From an uncultured Candidatus Peribacteria bacterium (GTDB lineage Bacteria; Patescibacteriota; Gracilibacteria; RBG-16-42-10): 64,000 nucleotides of DNA. A program made the position numbers. The stretch's first letter is position 1; each line of letters starts with the position of its first letter. Of this stretch, positions 36,001 through 42,000 are shown piece after piece. The DNA lies in NCBI GenBank assembly GCA_964514565.1, contig CAZERA010000001.1:434001-498000 (forward strand). Direction: 5' to 3'.

Positions 36001-39000
36001 CGATGTAGAAACTGTAAAGAAGTTTCGGCAGATTTTTACTATGCAAGCAGTCAGCAAGATCCGAGTAGGCATGATAGAGCATATTGATTTGATGACTATT
36101 CCAGCACAACAAATGCTTCTCAAGCTTTTAGAAGAGGCTCCACCCAAGAGCATTTTCTTGCTCACAACTACTCGACTCAAGTCAATTAGTAAGCCGATTC
36201 TTTCCCGTACTGCTGTATATAGGCTGGCTACTAAACCACATACGATTGAGTCACCTTATCAAGACTGGTTTGCTAATTTGTTTGATACCAGGGCATTGAT
36301 GATCGATAAACAGCTTCTGATCGACCAAATCGAAAAAGAAACCAGCTGGGCCCAGTTTAGTTTTGAGCTGTCGCATTATCTTTACAAAACGCATGCTAGC
36401 CCTAGCACTATTCAGAAATGGCTGTTTACATTATCATTGGCCCAACAAAGTGCTAAGATGAAGCCTCTTTTGGAATATTTCTTTTTTACTTGATATGGAA
36501 AGTTTTTGGCTCTATATAGCCGGCTTTAGCTGGATTGCTATCGCTATCATTGCTGCTCGTAGACTAGTACTGCGCTACCAAGGTGTGAGATTACCGATTC
36601 ATGAGGAGTTCAAAACTCACGACCAAATTAGTGAACAAGCGATTACGATTGAAAGAATGTTTCAGAGCAATTTGCATGACATGTCTTTCTCTGAGCTTTT
36701 GACTATGGCTGACAAGCTCAATAAAAAACAAGATTTTCGTAAAGTAGTAAAATACCTCGAAGAGGCCCTCCATCGTGATTTGCCACCGGATCATTATGTC
36801 GATATCCATGTAAAACTGATCGATGCTTACTTGGCTTTGAATGATTATCCTAGAGCGCTTGTGGTTGTTAATAAGCTACTTTTTCATTTCCCTAATGAAG
36901 CAATCTGGCAAGAGAAGGCAGCTAAGATTCAAATCTTGGCAGGTAGATATGAAGAAGCGGTAAAGACTTTAGAAGCATTGATCGATATGCATCCTCAAAA
37001 AACTTACCTAGAGCTTTTGGCTAAAGCTTATCGTAAGCTTAAGTTGCATGATAAGGCGAGGGATATTTACCAAGATATACACCGTTTTCGCTAGATATCC
37101 TTCGACTAAACTCAGGATGATTAGTGAAGAAGGAAGAGGTAAAAAGTTATTGTAGGTTTAGGGTGATATTACAATTCCTTTGTAAGCGAAGAACTTTTTG
37201 AATTGTTTGTTGCTTAGAGCAACATTACTTTGGTTTTTAGTAGTCCCTCCACTTGGGTTGTGGAAATACAGTGTTTTTGTTTTTTTGTTGTAACCAAATA
37301 GTAGGATTAAGTGACCACCTTTACTGGTTGGTGTGCTATCTGGATCACGAATGGCTGGATTTACCGAGGCGATTACGTAACCTCCCTGGCCAATAGTATT
37401 GATTATCTCTGTAATAGTAAGGGCTGTGACTGGTCTTGCTTGAAGCTGGTATTCTGCCGCGACAAAAGTACAGAAAGGTTTGTAAAAGAGACCGGGTGAA
37501 TCTTGGAGTGGTTCTTGATAGCCACCATAACTTAAACATTGTTTGGCTAGTGTCACTAAAGGCACCTTTAGTGCCTGTTTGTGTTGCAGCAACATTTTTA
37601 AACAAGCCATGCCACATGCATTCCAACTCCATAGTTCGTATTCTGCTGGTGTCACAGCACCAGAGTTTTGCCAAAGAGGATCAGCAGAAGCAAGTATTTT
37701 ACCTGTCAGTATCGCACTAGTCAGCTCAGGTGATTCCCACTGACTATAGTAAGGAACATCTTGATGACTAAAACTCTCAGGAATTTTCTTATTCACAAAA
37801 AACCACTTGAGGTACTGAACCAACAAGAGTGCTTTTTGTTTGAGTAAAACCATGGTGACTCTAGTGAAAAATGAATGATGAATAGTGAATAACTGAGGAT
37901 CCTCTACAAAGTCGCTAAACTTTTCATTATTTGTTATTCACTATTCACTCCTAGTCCTAAAACTAACTTTTTTTACCAGACTTTCTTTTCTTCTCCAATC
38001 CAAACCCTTCAAGCCTATCGCTCAAAGTAGTGTAAACATCATCTTCGTGTTCATCAGCATTGATACTGATCAACTTACCCATTTTCTCGTAGAGAGAAAC
38101 AATTGGTGCTGTCTCTTGATAGTAGTTGCTAAGGCGAAGCTTCATGCCGACGATATTGTCTTCTTTGACTAGTTTGAGATCATTGTCACACTTCTCACAA
38201 GTTTCAGCGATGGAGTCAGCTGAATAAACTGATTGGCAATAACTACAAATCTTTTTCTTGGTGATACGAGTGAGGGCATGATCGTCACCGACATTGAACA
38301 GTACAGCCACAAAATTACGTTTGTACTGACTAATCAAGCGGTTGAAGAAGTCTGCTTGGGCGAGGTTCTTGGGGAAACCGTCAAAAATAATTGGTTTCTC
38401 AGTGCTGACATTTTTGATGAAAGCCTCGACGATTTGTTGCAAGATATCGCTAGGCACTACTTGTCCTGCTGTCAGGAGTTGTTTTACTTTGCGACCAAGC
38501 TGATTGTCTTGTTTCATGGTTTTCTGAAGCTCGTAGTGGAGATCAAAAATAGCCATGTCGTAGATCTTGGTCAGCTTCATCGCTTGGCAAGTCTTGCCAG
38601 AGCCTGGAGGACCAAAGAATACTAAATCAGGGAAATAGTTGAAGCTCATGCTGCTAGCCAAGAAATTGATATCGTTGTCTTGGGCTTGTTCAGCTTTACT
38701 GAGATTGATACGCACGCTATCTGGATGCTCGCGTAGTTTGACCAGAGCTTTGGCTTCGATCTGACGAATACGTTCACGGGTGACACCAAATTCTTGACCT
38801 ACTTCTTCCAAAGTGTGTCCGATACCATCATCCAAACCGAAACGCATACGGATGATTTTTTGTTCACGTGGAGTCAGAGAATCAAGCAGTCTATGCACAT
38901 CTTCCTTGAGCAATTGGCGAGCAGCTTGAGAAGATGGACTGAGGGTCACATCATCTTCAATAAAGTCACCAAGCTTACCAGAATTGTCACCATCAGAACC

Positions 39001-42000
39001 GACTGGTGCTTCTAGAGAGACGATATCTTGAGAGATTTTCTTGATATACCGAATCTTCTTCACATCCATATCCATTTCAGAAGCAATTTCTTCGATCAAT
39101 GGTTCACGACCCAGCTCTTGTACAAGGCGACGTTGGGTATGCGTAAATTTGTTGATTGTCTCCACCATGTGCACAGGAATACGAATGGTACGAGCTTGAT
39201 CAGCAATCGCGCGTGTAATTGCCTGACGAATCCACCAAGTAGCATAGGTAGAGAATTTGAAACCTTTGCGGTAATCAAATTTTTCTACAGCACGAAACAA
39301 ACCGATATTACCCTCTTGAATTAAATCCAAAAGCGAAAGTCCACGACCAACATATTTTTTAGCGATACTAACTACCAAACGAAGATTAGCTTCAGCCAAT
39401 TGACGCTTGGCCACTGGATCATTTTTGGTGATGCGTTTGGCGAGCATTACTTCTTCTTCAGCATTGAGTAGTTCAACACGACCTATTTCACGTAGATACA
39501 TGCGGATAGAGTCTCCGGCTATGTCACCGAGGGCGAAGTTCTTTTTGTTGGTAGAAAGAAATTTATCTCGTAGTTTTTCTTCTGAAGTTTTTAGAGTAGG
39601 ATTAGCTTTTTCTTTTTCTTTGGCAACAGTTTTTTGTTGGTTTTGCCAAATGAATTCTTGTTGAGAGTCAACGATTTCAATACCGTGTTCTAGAAACTGT
39701 ACCATCACATCTTCTACTACGCCCAGATTACTTTCGAATTCTGGGATAGCATGCATGACTTCTTGTTGAGTCACGAATCCTTGCTCTTTACCTTTCTTGA
39801 TTAATAAGCGCACCTCTGGGCTATACTTTGCCAACGAATCTTGTTCGCGTTTGATACTTTTTTTTCCCACTAGGCTGATGTTAAGTATGTAGCTGTAGTA
39901 TACGAGCGGTGGCAGCTAAAATTTGTTGTTCTTCTAGTTTGTTTCCTTCGACTCTGGCTTTTTTCAATGCTCCTTGCAAGTTACGAATAGCTTCTTGTTT
40001 AAGATGGTCTTTGAGACGCTGGAAAAGCTTGGTTTTCTCAGCTAGTAGACGTTCTTGATCGTAGTCTTGACACTGTTCTTCGGTGCGAAGTAGTTGGAGA
40101 GAAAATTGATCTGAAGAGATCTGAGGTGGGAATTGACTAGTAAGTAAGCTGATATCGCTTGATACTCGTGGGGCACTATAGTACTCATATCCGTTTCTGT
40201 AAATGTCTCGAAAATCGGCAGGAAGAAGTTCTATGAGCCCTGGATCCTGGAGTGCGTCGATGAATTGGGGATAGAGTACACAGAAAGCCAGACTGACTAG
40301 CAATAAATCAGTTTGGGCTGAGCTCGGAATGGTCGGTAGGGTACGTTCGACATGGTGGGACTGGAGGGTCTTATAAATCAGCGTTTCACTCTTGTGTAGA
40401 ATATCTGCTAGTTTTTTGACATAAATATCTTGATCTAGCGGGTGAGCTAGGCGTTTGACCAGTGGAATAGTCACTTTCAAAACATCCTTTTGATCTTCGA
40501 TAAAGTTGAGATCTTTATCAGCAAAAAATGCCAACATAATATAATCAAACCAATCCAAGTGTTTTTCAATCTGCTGCATATAGAGAGCAGGATCTTGTTT
40601 GATCACAGAATCGGGATCTTGGCCTTCTCCCAAAAGGACAAAACGGGCTTGCGTTTCAGGTAAAGCGACCAGATCAGGCATAATACGTAGCGCTGCATTC
40701 TTGCCGGCTTGATCACCGTCAAAAATAAAGATAAGTGTATCTGCTTGGCGACGTAATATTTCTAAATGGCGAGGTGTAAAAGCAGTACCAGAGACTGCTA
40801 CTGTATTTAGTATGCCGGCTTGCACACTAGTAAGACAATCAACCTGGCCTTCAACAATATGTACTCGTCTAGCGGCTTTGATGCTGGACTTGGCTTGGTA
40901 TAAACCGTAAATGAACGAGCTTTTGTGAAACAAGACTGTCTCAGGAGAGTTGAGATACTTTGGTTGATTTTCATTGGTGAGGGCTCGCCCAGTGAAACCA
41001 ATCACATCGCCTCGATCACCATAAAAAGGGAAAATAATGCGGTCACGAAATTTGTCATGGCCACTTGCTTCTTTGTCACCTTGAATACTGACACCGGCCG
41101 CTAATTGCTCAGCCAGTGAGAAGCCGGATTTGAGGAGATGATCATGCAATAACTGCCAGCTATCAGGTGCATAACCTAAGCCGAACTGAGCGATGATACT
41201 CGCGCTAATGTTTCTTTGGTTGAGATAAGCTTGTGCTGTAGTAGCTGTAGCTGTTTGTTTCTGAAAAAAGCTTTGAGCTTCTCTGAGCAGTGCCCGCAGT
41301 TTTTCTTTTTCATCTTTCTGGGCTGAACTGTAAGCAGCTGATTTTTGATCAATGCTTAGTCCCACCCGGTCCGCCAAATCATGAATAGCTTCCCCAAAGT
41401 CTACCTTCTCAACTGTCATGTAGAACTTAAAAATGTCCCCCCCTTGATGGCAGCCAAAACAATAAGCAATGCCCTTGTCTGGACTAACCATGAAGGATGG
41501 TGTCTTTTCTTGATGAAATGGGCAAAGACCTTTGTAATTGCGACCAGAACGTTTGAGCGTCACATAGTCTTTGACCAAATCTTCAATACTGAGCCGGGAT
41601 TTTATTTCTACGACGGGGTCTAGCATTTAATTAACAAGTGACAATTTACAATTAACAGTTTTTTGGGGGGAGAAAAGGGGGCTTACTTTCGGATAATTAT
41701 GTCGCTTGCAGGGAAGCGGACTTTTGCTAGTTTGCTAGTTGCGTCACTGTCTTTACGGAAACCAACTGGACAGATTACTGTTGATTCGATGTTGTATTCA
41801 CTGAGACCCAGTATTTCGTCAAAGCCGGCATTGTTGAAACCTTCCATTGGACAAGCATCGATTTTTTCTAATGCACAAGTAGTCAGGAGTACGCCCAAAG
41901 CGATGTAAACTTGTTTCTTTGACCATGTCCTTACTGCTTCTGCATCTTTGCCATTGATTACACTCATCATCATTTGATGGAAACCATCGAGCTTCTCACG

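What a model noticed while it worked through the whole genome (the two positions that open the first line are those of the whole stretch)
37963..39870. Primary sigma factor RpoD fused to an adenylate-kinase-like domain
The only full-length sigma-70 (regions 1.1 to 4) of this genome, g00417, runs on without a stop into a complete adenylate-kinase fold (residues 419-598) that keeps the P-loop and the four-Cys lid but has lost several catalytic arginines. I read the appended domain as an adenine-nucleotide sensor that ties promoter use by the housekeeping sigma factor to the cell's ATP/ADP/AMP state in these energy-poor symbionts. New would be a primary sigma factor with a built-in nucleotide-binding regulatory domain, a design not described for sigma-70.
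Evidence so far: pfam.tsv: Sigma70_r1_1 16-87, r1_2 120-151, r2 158-228, r3 237-313, r4 328-381, then ADK 419-598 (5.2e-28, HMM 2-150 of 151) and AAA_17. One ORF of 635 aa, C1:471963-473870 (-), next to dnaG as usual for rpoD. Search with residues 405-635 among proteins of 349-1112 aa: 11 protein clusters at E<=1e-15, all 627-634 aa, all with the five sigma-70 Pfam regions plus ADK, 75-93% identical in the ADK part, from separate assemblies labelled Abawacabacteria/Gracilibacteria, so it is not a mis-assembly or a missed stop in this bin. Alignment with the genome's canonical Adk g00159 (in the ribosomal operon, between secY and map): P-loop GPPGSGKT kept, lid CxxC...CxxC kept, but ELRK->ELQK, NRRIC->KKKIC, [...]
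(Added by a program. Inside this text positions count along the whole contig: contig position 434,001 is position 1 of the stretch shown here. "Call 12" and the like, gene names such as g00115 and contig names such as C1 are that model's own, and its searches are not shown. The text may have been shortened before it was handed on; [...] marks where a part breaks off. The agent that wrote the report below was given it as the finding of a first reader that could run no searches.)

Follow-up and report, generated by a model that had tools for sequence, protein, structure and literature searches.

The report
Housekeeping sigma factor fused to degenerate adenylate kinase
In one family of uncultivated Gracilibacteria-class bacteria the main transcription initiation factor carries, in the same protein, a strongly conserved copy of adenylate kinase that has lost most of its catalytic arginines, so it probably binds nucleotides as a regulatory add-on and no longer works as an enzyme.

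Summary
Window 37963-39870 (-) is one 635-aa frame. It has sigma-70 regions 1.1-4, a 31-aa conserved linker, a full adenylate-kinase (Adk) fold and a short basic tail.

It is the genome's only primary sigma and lies next to dnaG. A separate canonical adk sits beside secY.

The same fusion is in 7 of 8 genomes of one family and in 11 protein clusters. It was found in no other of the 33 families sampled in the class. Among 1.84 billion representatives only one cluster resembles the fused domain closely.

The fused domain keeps the P-loop lysine, D84, Q92, R119, R167 and the Cys4 lid. It has R36Q, R123K, R156V/I, D158E, G14T and R88 as K or R, all at columns 94-100% conserved in 102 ordinary Adks. 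Its dN is below that of the canonical Adk in all 21 genome pairs.

My reading is a nucleotide-binding pseudo-kinase module on RpoD. A sensor role is plausible but untested. This is a new variant of sigma factors with fused C-terminal extensions, so far described for ECF sigmas.

The parts
37963..39870 (-). rpoD-adk-like fusion gene, 635 codons plus TAG stop
   Evidence: One open frame under tables 11 and 25. Full-length orthologues are present in 7 genomes.
39610..39825 (-). sigma-70 region 1.1 (residues 16-87)
   Evidence: Pfam PF03979, 51.1 bits
39418..39513 (-). sigma-70 region 1.2 (residues 120-151)
   Evidence: Pfam PF00140, 52.4 bits
39187..39399 (-). sigma-70 region 2 (residues 158-228)
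   Evidence: Pfam PF04542, 84.9 bits
38932..39162 (-). sigma-70 region 3 (residues 237-313)
   Evidence: Pfam PF04539, 73.6 bits
38728..38889 (-). sigma-70 region 4 (residues 328-381)
   Evidence: Pfam PF04545, 68.9 bits. TIGR02393 RpoD_Cterm scores 362.6 bits against a cut-off of 354.
38626..38718 (-). conserved linker after region 4 (residues 385-415)
   Evidence: 22 of 31 positions are invariant in 8 cluster representatives. Residues 395-411 have pLDDT below 50 in the full-length model.
38005..38625 (-). adenylate-kinase-like domain (residues 416-622)
   Evidence: Pfam ADK 94.1 bits. PDB phmmer best hit 5.6e-28. AF2 pLDDT 92.5 and Foldseek 1zin TM 0.83.
38587..38613 (-). P-loop GPPGSGKTC (residues 420-428)
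   Evidence: K13 equivalent is invariant. G14T is present in all 12 distinct fused sequences.
38188..38247 (-). Cys4 lid, CxxC...CxxC (C542, C545, C558, C561)
   Evidence: All four Cys are kept in all 12 distinct fused sequences.
37966..38004 (-). short basic C-terminal tail (residues 623-635, ...[10 protein letters not shown])
   Evidence: A Lys/Arg-rich end is present in all 12 distinct fused sequences.
39881..41626 (-). dnaG (primase) directly upstream, the usual partner of rpoD
   Evidence: Pfam Zn_ribbon_DnaG, DNAG_N, Toprim and DnaB_bind

Best explanation
Shown:
- The housekeeping sigma factor of this family of uncultivated Gracilibacteria-class bacteria is a natural fusion: RpoD regions 1.1-4, a conserved 31-residue linker, a zinc-lid adenylate-kinase fold, and a short basic tail.
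- The appended domain is a paralogue of the Gracilibacteria-type Adk. It diverged fast once and has been held almost fixed since.
- It keeps the parts of Adk that hold ATP-Mg: Walker-A Gly/Lys, D84, the adenine-stacking R119, R167 and the Zn lid.
- It has replaced three of the five catalytic arginines in every copy (R36Q, R123K, R156V/I). R88 is K or R. It also has D158E and G14T.

Inferred:
- The domain still binds an adenine nucleotide but transfers phosphate poorly or not at all, so it is a pseudo-kinase.
- Hung on the C-terminus of sigma region 4, it would sit at the upstream face of the holoenzyme near the -35 DNA and the beta flap. This placement comes from established holoenzyme architecture and was not computed here.
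- Nucleotide-dependent closing of its lid and NMP-binding lobes would then change how region 4, the conserved linker or the basic tail engage DNA or core. That would tie housekeeping transcription to the adenylate pool.
For: - Real and inherited: the full-length fusion is in 7 of 8 genomes of family f1, across 3 genera. There are 11 clusters of 627-634 aa from several sources.
- No free-standing form found: the only short look-alike is a 149-aa piece on a 560-base contig.
- Adk fold: PDB phmmer gives 94 sequences at E<=0.001, best 5.6e-28 over the whole chain. The AF2 domain model has pLDDT 92.5, and the top Foldseek hits are all Adk, with 1zin TM 0.83.
- Active-site pattern: of 32 columns at least 80% conserved in 102 stand-alone Adks, 20 are unchanged in the fused rows. 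These include K13, G56, D84, P87, Q92, R119, R167 and the four Cys.
- Twelve columns differ, among them R36Q, R123K, R156V/I and D158E. R123, R156 and D158 are 100% conserved in the 102 Adks.
- R88 is K in 6 and R in 6 of the 12 distinct fused sequences.
- In E. coli Adk, R88A, R123A, R156K and R167A each leave under 1% activity and R36A leaves 17%. KM for ATP stays at 52-120 uM (PMC8297476, passages read).
- Selection: dN of the fused domain is 0.03-0.21 against 0.10-0.46 for the same genomes' canonical Adk, lower in 21 of 21 pairs. The 7 genomes are not independent. dS is saturated, and dN/dS is 0.017-0.075 in the 4 pairs where it could be computed.
- 118 of 207 domain positions are invariant in the 12 sequences. 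31 of those are rare in ordinary Adks and concentrate in the NMP-binding and lid parts.
- The linker is conserved, 22 of 31 positions invariant.
- Not a replacement enzyme: canonical Adk, Cmk, Gmk, Tmk and Ndk homologues are all encoded.
- Precedent for the principle: ECF sigmas have ligand-responsive C-terminal extensions (PMC8999054, passages).
Against: - No nucleotide binding, activity or transcription measurement exists.
- Lys for Arg keeps the charge, and R88 is still Arg in half of the sequences, so weak kinase or ATPase activity cannot be excluded.
- The full-length AF2 model gives no confident packing of the two halves (pTM 0.35, linker pLDDT below 50). A mechanism through intramolecular contact therefore has no computational support.
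- Other families of the class carry quite different add-ons at the same place: a Cys4 ribbon, Lys-rich tails. The common denominator may be DNA or RNAP contact and not ligand sensing.
- The 102 comparison Adks were chosen as best hits to the fused domain.
- The domain model rests on an alignment that is mostly ordinary Adks.
Confidence: 0.45

Rival explanations
1. Nucleotide-independent adaptor. The Adk fold serves only as a rigid, conserved scaffold on region 4. Together with the basic tail it contacts upstream DNA, the RNA polymerase surface or another protein. This would be the same job that other add-ons do in sister families.
For: - The RpoD C-terminus is a hot spot for add-ons in this class. 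Ten of 11 fetched f9 genomes have a roughly 50-aa Cys4 ribbon. Family f2 has a roughly 210-aa Lys-rich tail. Families f20 and f27 have short basic tails.
- All 12 distinct fused sequences end in a basic tail.
- 31 fused-specific invariant residues lie on the lid and NMP-binding lobes. These could form a new binding surface.
Against: - The Walker-A motif GPPG[S/A]GKT, D84, R119 and R167 are invariant in all 12 sequences. That is hard to explain without a bound nucleotide.
- The net charge and pI of the domain (7.0-8.7) are not outside the range of ordinary Adks, where 39 of 102 are above 8.
Confidence: 0.25
2. Working kinase tethered to RNA polymerase. The domain still interconverts ATP+AMP and 2 ADP, or acts on another phosphate acceptor such as a different NMP or an RNA 5' end. 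It would supply or edit nucleotides at the site of initiation.
For: - K13, D84, Q92, R119, R167, the lid and the full fold are kept. The Arg-to-Lys changes keep the charge. R88 is retained in 6 of 12 sequences.
- Strong purifying selection.
Against: - R123, R156 and D158 are 100% conserved in 102 Adks and are changed in every fused copy. R36 is Q in every copy.
- R156K alone leaves under 1% activity in E. coli Adk (PMC8297476).
- R88 toggles between K and R among close relatives, which a catalytic residue should not do.
- The genome has its own Adk, Cmk, Gmk, Tmk and Ndk.
Confidence: 0.12
3. Slow ATPase switch. The G14T change makes a classic GK[S/T] Walker A, and the domain hydrolyses ATP slowly. 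The cycle would time a step of the sigma cycle, such as core binding, promoter escape or release, as Fap7/AK6-type Adk relatives do in ribosome assembly. That comparison is recalled, not tested here.
For: - An invariant Thr follows the P-loop lysine in all 12 sequences, where 94% of the 102 Adks have Gly.
- The acceptor (AMP) site is remodelled while the ATP site is kept.
Against: - No catalytic water-activating residue was identified.
- The lid arginines that would stabilise the transition state are also weakened.
- No data exist.
Confidence: 0.12
4. Artefact or decaying passenger. This would be a missed stop, a chimeric assembly, or a recent accidental fusion drifting toward loss.
For: Metagenome-assembled genomes are the only source of the sequence.
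Against: - The same frame, without a stop, is present in 7 separately assembled genomes of 3 genera and in 11 clusters from several archives.
- The domain evolves more slowly than the essential canonical Adk in 21 of 21 pairs.
- The linker is conserved.
Confidence: 0.01

Closest known systems
ECF (group 4) sigma factors with fused C-terminal regulatory extensions (ECF41 SnoaL-like, ECF42 TPR, ECF238 CorE Cys-rich; OrbS on-board iron sensor)
   Same: A sigma factor carries its own C-terminal domain after region 4. That domain binds a small ligand or a partner and sets the sigma's activity, replacing a separate regulator (PMC8999054 passages; PMC3426412 and PMC9023288 seen as search listings and abstracts).
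   Different: - Those are alternative sigmas with only regions 2 and 4. This one is the sole primary sigma, with regions 1.1-4.
- The extension here is an NMP-kinase fold.
- The words adenylate, P-loop, nucleotide-binding and ATPase do not occur in the main text of the ECF reclassification paper (PMC7826278).
Zinc-lid bacterial adenylate kinase (for example Geobacillus stearothermophilus 1zin, Bacillus subtilis 1p3j)
   Same: - Whole-chain sequence match of 1e-23 to 6e-28.
- Same fold, TM 0.78-0.83.
- Cys4 lid, P-loop lysine, D84, Q92, R119 and R167.
   Different: - R36Q, R123K, R156V/I, D158E, G14T, G32 lost, and R88 as K or R.
- At most 38% identical to any ordinary Adk compared (34% among the library hits; 38% at most among the rows).
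- Never found free-standing.
- A separate canonical Adk is kept in every genome of the order searched.
Canonical bacterial RpoD/SigA
   Same: All five sigma-70 regions are present, RpoD_Cterm scores over its cut-off, the gene lies next to dnaG, and it is the only such gene in the genome.
   Different: About 250 extra residues follow region 4. Five class RpoDs read to their stop codon end 19-20 residues after the RERIRQIE motif.
Catalytically inactive kinase-fold subunits of the plastid-encoded RNA polymerase (FLN1/FLN2) and the AK6/TAF9 locus in animals
   Same: Enzyme-derived nucleotide-kinase folds are associated with the transcription apparatus in a non-metabolic role.
   Different: They are separate polypeptides, belong to different kinase families and occur in different organisms. 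This is a resemblance from memory only.

Membership tests
Group 1 (primary) sigma-70, RpoD | Regions 1.1, 1.2, 2, 3 and 4 all present in order | tested here: met
   Five Pfam regions, each over its gathering score
Group 1 (primary) sigma-70, RpoD | Reaches a curated RpoD model cut-off | tested here: met
   TIGR02393 RpoD_Cterm scores 362.6 bits against a cut-off of 354. The full-length equivalogs stay under their cut-offs (493.1 < 555 and 479.5 < 572), as can be expected with the extra domain and a divergent lineage.
Group 1 (primary) sigma-70, RpoD | Sole full-length sigma of the genome, in the dnaG-rpoD arrangement | tested here: met
   The other three Sigma70_r2 hits lie in frames of 193-222 aa. 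dnaG is directly upstream. The genome is 92.7% complete.
Adenylate kinase (Pfam PF00406, EC 2.7.4.3) | ADK domain over the Pfam gathering score, and Adk fold | tested here: met
   94.1 bits against 26.8. Foldseek top hits are all Adk, TM up to 0.83. The model's alignment is mostly ordinary Adks.
Adenylate kinase (Pfam PF00406, EC 2.7.4.3) | Five conserved active-site arginines (R36, R88, R123, R156, R167 in E. coli numbering; PMC8297476) | tested here: not met
   R36Q, R123K and R156V/I in all fused sequences. R88 is K in 6 of 12. Only R167 is always kept.
Adenylate kinase (Pfam PF00406, EC 2.7.4.3) | Adk-type P-loop GxxGxGKGT | tested here: not met
   GPPG[S/A]GKT[C/T/S]. The lysine is kept, G14 is Thr in 12 of 12, and T15 is variable.
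Adenylate kinase (Pfam PF00406, EC 2.7.4.3) | Reaches the NCBIfam adk cut-off (TIGR01351, 168 bits) | tested here: inconclusive
   The fused domain scores 132.9 bits. The genome's canonical Adk also falls short at 153.9 bits, so the cut-off does not discriminate in this lineage.
Adenylate kinase (Pfam PF00406, EC 2.7.4.3) | Catalyses ATP + AMP = 2 ADP | not testable with these tools
   Needs an enzyme assay
Sigma factors with fused C-terminal regulatory extension (ECF41/42/238 type) | Conserved extra domain after region 4 in the same polypeptide | tested here: met
   Linker plus domain are present in 7 genomes and 11 clusters.
Sigma factors with fused C-terminal regulatory extension (ECF41/42/238 type) | ECF architecture (regions 2 and 4 only) | tested here: not met
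   Regions 1.1, 1.2 and 3 are present.
Sigma factors with fused C-terminal regulatory extension (ECF41/42/238 type) | Extension modulates sigma activity in response to a ligand or partner | not testable with these tools
   Needs biochemistry

The most novel reading that the evidence does not exclude
The housekeeping sigma factor of these bacteria is a one-component energy sensor. A pseudo-adenylate-kinase built into RpoD reads the ATP/ADP/AMP pool, or a related dinucleoside polyphosphate. Through its lid closure it gates region 4 and upstream-DNA engagement, so that global transcription initiation is set directly by adenylate charge without any separate regulator.
Probability: 0.3. Interest if true: 0.85.

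Novelty: new variant of a known kind. Interest (0 to 1): 0.62.

Why it matters
Primary sigma factors are regarded as constitutive parts of the transcription machine. They are regulated from outside by anti-sigmas, alarmones acting on core, or initiating-NTP concentration.

A primary sigma with its own conserved nucleotide-binding module would be a direct, single-polypeptide link between metabolism and global promoter use. It would also be a clean natural case of an essential enzyme fold turned into a regulatory pseudo-enzyme.

The hypothesis is readily testable with recombinant protein: binding, activity, and hybrid holoenzyme transcription.

The side observation points the same way. Sister families hang a Cys4 ribbon or a long Lys-rich tail on the same C-terminus. 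This suggests that the bacterial class as a whole uses the end of region 4 as a docking point for extra functions, which has not been explored.

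Tried and rejected
- **Complex prediction.** Sigma part (residues 1-395) against the Adk-like domain: no verdict. 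It is not used as evidence either way.
- **Full-length AF2 model**: pTM 0.35 and a low-confidence linker, so nothing can be read about the arrangement of the domains.
- **First combined alignment A1**: it placed the N-terminal halves of ordinary Adks on the sigma part. I discarded it and built A2 and A4 instead. A3 was a stray call and was not used.
- **Sequencing runs**: only fragmentary contigs. No listed run held half or more of the sampled words, and the best share was 0.30. One 251-base contig from an RNA library is identical to 39440-39690. No contig bridges the linker. This says nothing on expression of the Adk part or on habitat.
- **dN/dS.** Synonymous sites are saturated in most pairs, so only dN comparisons and 4 ratios are given.
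- **Careful tree.** The search did not finish in 300 s, so the quick tree is reported.
- **Missing NMP kinase idea: rejected.** Cmk, Gmk, Tmk, Ndk and canonical Adk homologues are all present. PyrH was not searched.
- **Tail compensating for a missing alpha C-terminal domain: rejected.** RpoA CTD is present.
- **Lineage lacking alarmone signalling: rejected.** A RelA_SpoT homologue is present.
- **Unusually basic, nucleic-acid-binding surface: not supported.** The domain's pI is 7.0-8.7, and 39 of 102 Adks are above 8.
- **Family-specific changes in the sigma part that might mark a docking site.** Only 13 were found, mostly conservative and scattered.
- **Conserved internal start for a separate Adk-like protein.** The Met at residue 408 is Leu in 4 of 12 sequences.
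- **rpoD followed by an adk-like gene in G040.** The apparent match past region 4 was a basic tail and the next gene, greA.

Full report
**1. Observation**

Window 37963-39870 on the minus strand is one open frame of 635 codons. It has a GTG start and a TAG stop. It reads identically under tables 11 and 25 and has no in-frame TGA.

Pfam finds the following:
- Sigma70_r1_1 at 16-87, r1_2 at 120-151, r2 at 158-228, r3 at 237-313 and r4 at 328-381.
- ADK at 419-598, with 94.1 bits, E 1.2e-26 and HMM positions 2-150 of 151.

The NCBIfam RpoD C-terminal model is passed, 362.6 bits against a cut-off of 354.

The genes around it are ordinary:
- dnaG directly upstream at 39881-41626.
- A C39-like peptidase downstream at 37158-37853.

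The whole genome is 1.118 Mb in 7 contigs and 92.7% complete. It has four Sigma70_r2 hits. The other three lie in frames of 193-222 aa, so this is the only primary sigma.

The genome has two ADK hits. The second is a 238-aa canonical adk directly after secY.

**2. Is the fusion real, and how wide is it?**

In the 9 genomes of the order, the full-length fusion (86-100% identity, query 1-631 or more, one frame) is present in 7 of the 8 genomes of family f1, across three genera. The eighth, G006, is 85% complete in about 180 contigs and gave no rpoD match at all. Every genome of the order also has a separate canonical adk, 27-32% identical to the fused domain.

It gives 11 clusters of 627-634 aa, 75-94% identical, all carrying the sigma and ADK Pfam domains.

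Among shorter proteins, the only close match is a 149-aa piece on a 560-base contig. The rest are ordinary Adks at 30-32% identity.

A full HMMER scan of 1.84 billion cluster representatives found 12,863 Adk relatives. Only one of them is close to the fused domain (P0003, 629 aa, 88%). The next best are at most 34% identical. Thirteen long hits from that list carry no sigma domain.

In a sample of 121 genomes from 33 families of the class, a match running from sigma into the Adk part was seen only in f1. Elsewhere the RpoD match ends near residue 389.

The fusion is therefore real, inherited, and confined to one family as far as it has been sampled.

**3. What the appended domain is**

By sequence it matches solved zinc-lid adenylate kinases over their whole length. 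Ninety-four PDB sequences match at E<=0.001, and the best is 5.6e-28.

A model built on a 108-row alignment has pLDDT 92.5 and pTM 0.87. Its best Foldseek hits in the PDB are all adenylate kinases, with 1zin at TM 0.83. One caveat applies: the alignment is mostly ordinary Adks.

A quick maximum-likelihood tree had 68 rows. These were 9 fused, 9 order canonical, 4 class canonical, 45 of 95 single-domain representatives, and E. coli. Three near-identical fused rows were left out. The careful search did not finish. The tree shows:
- The fused domains form one clade (SH-aLRT 100) on a long stem (1.47 changes per site) with a very short crown (branches of 0.09 or less).
- That clade sits inside a supported clade (98) holding the class's canonical Adks.

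This is the signature of a duplicated lineage Adk that changed function once and was then frozen.

**4. Active-site anatomy**

I aligned 12 distinct fused domains, 9 canonical Adks of the order and E. coli Adk for numbering. I then tabulated the 32 columns that are at least 80% conserved in 102 stand-alone Adks.

Twenty columns are unchanged in the fused rows: G7, G10, G12, K13, Q16, G46, G56, D84, P87, Q92, R119, the four lid Cys, R167, T175, P177, Y182 and V205.

Twelve columns differ:
- G14T
- T15 to C/T/S
- G32 to H/P/Q
- R36Q
- L58 to V/I/M (conservative)
- V59 to V/I (conservative)
- G85S, in one sequence only
- R88 to K or R
- R123K
- R156 to V/I
- D158E
- D159 to D/E

R123, R156 and D158 are 100% conserved in the 102 Adks. 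R88 is 99% conserved and R36 is 96%.

Across the 12 distinct fused sequences R88 is K in 6 and R in 6, and it differs even between sequences 94% identical. 'P-loop kept' is only half right.

For E. coli Adk, the passages read in PMC8297476 state three things:
- R36, R88, R123, R156 and R167 are the five conserved active-site arginines.
- R88A, R123A, R156K and R167A each leave under 1% activity, and R36A leaves 17%.
- KM for ATP stays at 52-120 uM.

By inference, a domain with R36Q, R123K and R156V/I should still hold nucleotide but be a very poor phosphotransferase.

**5. Selection**

For the 7 genomes with both genes, nonsynonymous divergence of the fused domain is 0.03-0.21. For the same genomes' canonical Adk it is 0.10-0.46. 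The fused domain is lower in all 21 pairs, though the pairs are not independent. The sigma core has dN of 0.007-0.056. Synonymous sites are saturated. In the four pairs where a ratio could be computed for the fused domain, dN/dS is 0.017-0.075.

Of 207 domain positions, 118 are invariant in the 12 sequences. Thirty-one of these are residues rare in ordinary Adks, and they lie mainly in the NMP-binding and lid parts.

The 31-residue linker after region 4 has 22 invariant positions in 8 cluster representatives, as conserved as the domain itself.

The domain is therefore not a passenger.

**6. Context that bears on function**

The genome encodes homologues of Cmk, Gmk, two Tmk-like frames and Ndk, besides the canonical Adk. 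The fused domain therefore does not fill a missing kinase. PyrH was not searched.

RelA_SpoT and the RpoA C-terminal domain are present.

The NCBIfam adk cut-off does not discriminate. The fused domain scores 132.9 bits and the canonical Adk 153.9, both under 168.

The RpoD C-terminus turns out to be a hot spot for add-ons in this class:
- Five RpoDs read to their stop end 19-20 residues after RERIRQIE.
- Family f2 of the same order has a roughly 210-residue Lys-rich tail with no Pfam match.
- Ten of 11 fetched f9 genomes have a roughly 50-residue extension with a CxxC...CxxC motif.
- Families f20 and f27 have short basic tails.
- All 12 fused sequences also end in a basic tail.

**7. Mechanism**

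Shown: the architecture, the retained ATP-Mg-holding residues, the lost catalytic arginines, strong constraint on the domain and the linker, and restriction to one family.

Inferred:
- The domain binds an adenine nucleotide without efficient turnover.
- It is tethered to the C-terminus of region 4. By established holoenzyme architecture, not computed here, that places it at the upstream face near the -35 element and the beta flap.
- Its nucleotide-dependent lid and NMP-lobe closure alters how region 4, the linker or the basic tail engage DNA or core.

I put this reading at 0.45. The rivals are:
- A nucleotide-independent adaptor or DNA-contact module (0.25). The diverse add-ons in sister families favour it. 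The invariant Walker A, D84, R119 and R167 count against it.
- A still-working kinase (0.12). The changes at 100%-conserved catalytic columns and the R88 K/R toggling count against it.
- A slow ATPase switch (0.12). The invariant GKT is suggestive, with no other support.
- An artefact (0.01).

**8. Comparison with what is known, and novelty**

The closest principle is the ECF sigma factors with fused C-terminal regulatory extensions: ECF41, ECF42, ECF238 CorE, and OrbS. In these the extension binds a ligand or partner and sets activity (PMC8999054 passages; search listings). This protein fails ECF membership because regions 1.1, 1.2 and 3 are present. Its extension is also a different fold. 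The ECF reclassification paper's main text has none of the words adenylate, P-loop, nucleotide-binding or ATPase.

It is a member of RpoD by every feature tested. It belongs to the Adk fold family by Pfam and by structure, but it fails the catalytic-arginine and P-loop features.

Full-text searches found nothing on such a fusion:
- 'sigma factor', 'adenylate kinase', 'fusion', 'Candidate Phyla Radiation': 42 papers held at least 3 of the 4 terms, and none of the 15 listed was relevant.
- 'Abawacabacteria': 7 papers.
- 'housekeeping sigma factor' with 'C-terminal extension': 9 papers, none on a primary sigma add-on by title or abstract.
- 'adenylate kinase-like' with 'sigma-70': 0 papers.

Subscription journals and supplements were not covered.

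I rate it a new variant of a known kind.

**9. Verdict**

The sensor interpretation is reasonable but unproven.

Interest is 0.62. A primary sigma with a built-in, strongly conserved pseudo-kinase would surprise transcription specialists and is directly testable. On the other side, it is confined to one uncultivated family and has no functional data.

Noticed in passing
L059, L061-L065, L068-L070, L076 (RpoD 3' ends of family f9 genomes G045, G033, G056, G093, G102, G110, G084, G015, G118, G066): Ten of 11 fetched f9 genomes have a roughly 50-residue extension after RpoD region 4 with a CPxC-x17-18-CDxC zinc-ribbon-like motif. G075 (L060) lacks the cysteines. There is no significant Pfam match. 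This is a second, independent kind of add-on on a primary sigma.
   Followed up: partly
L014 1498..3324 (G001, family f2 of the same order): This RpoD is 608 aa. After the same REHPDSV motif, its last roughly 210 residues are a Lys-rich low-complexity tail resembling histone H1 (a resemblance from memory). There is no Adk domain and no Pfam match.
   Followed up: partly
L016 1459..3210 (-) (G003, same family as the window): A second sigma-70-family protein of 583 aa has regions 2-4 at residues 352-569 and a roughly 350-residue N-terminal part without a Pfam match. Other class genomes show sigma-like matches in frames of 631-1035 aa (G042, G075, G093, G056). These may be MzaA-like defence sigmas, but that was not checked.
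   Followed up: partly
G000 contig 1: 190891-194430 (L001), outside the window: The canonical adk follows secY but is followed by a convergent flavin amine oxidase gene, not by map.
   Followed up: yes
G000 contig 6: 9723-9866 (L027), outside the window: A second hit to the RNA polymerase alpha C-terminal domain (30.5 bits) lies in a 122-aa frame, besides the normal rpoA on contig 1.
   Followed up: no
G000 contig 4: 18325-18720 (L056), outside the window: A weak second RelA_SpoT-domain hit (30.7 bits) lies in a 624-aa frame, besides the main 729-aa frame on contig 1.
   Followed up: no
G000 contig 1: 35138-36306 (L081, L082), outside the window: Two adjacent thymidylate-kinase-like frames of 301 and 285 aa lie on the same strand.
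   Followed up: no
window 26612-27130 (-): A 196-aa frame has a split, weak match to cytidylate kinase (35.4 and 20.4 bits, 56.1 together).
   Followed up: no
class-level search: RpoD matches in several families of the class (for example f13, f23, f26, f30, f31) contain 2-21 in-frame TGA codons. This fits TGA recoding there. The window's family and order have none, so this lineage reads the standard code.
   Followed up: no
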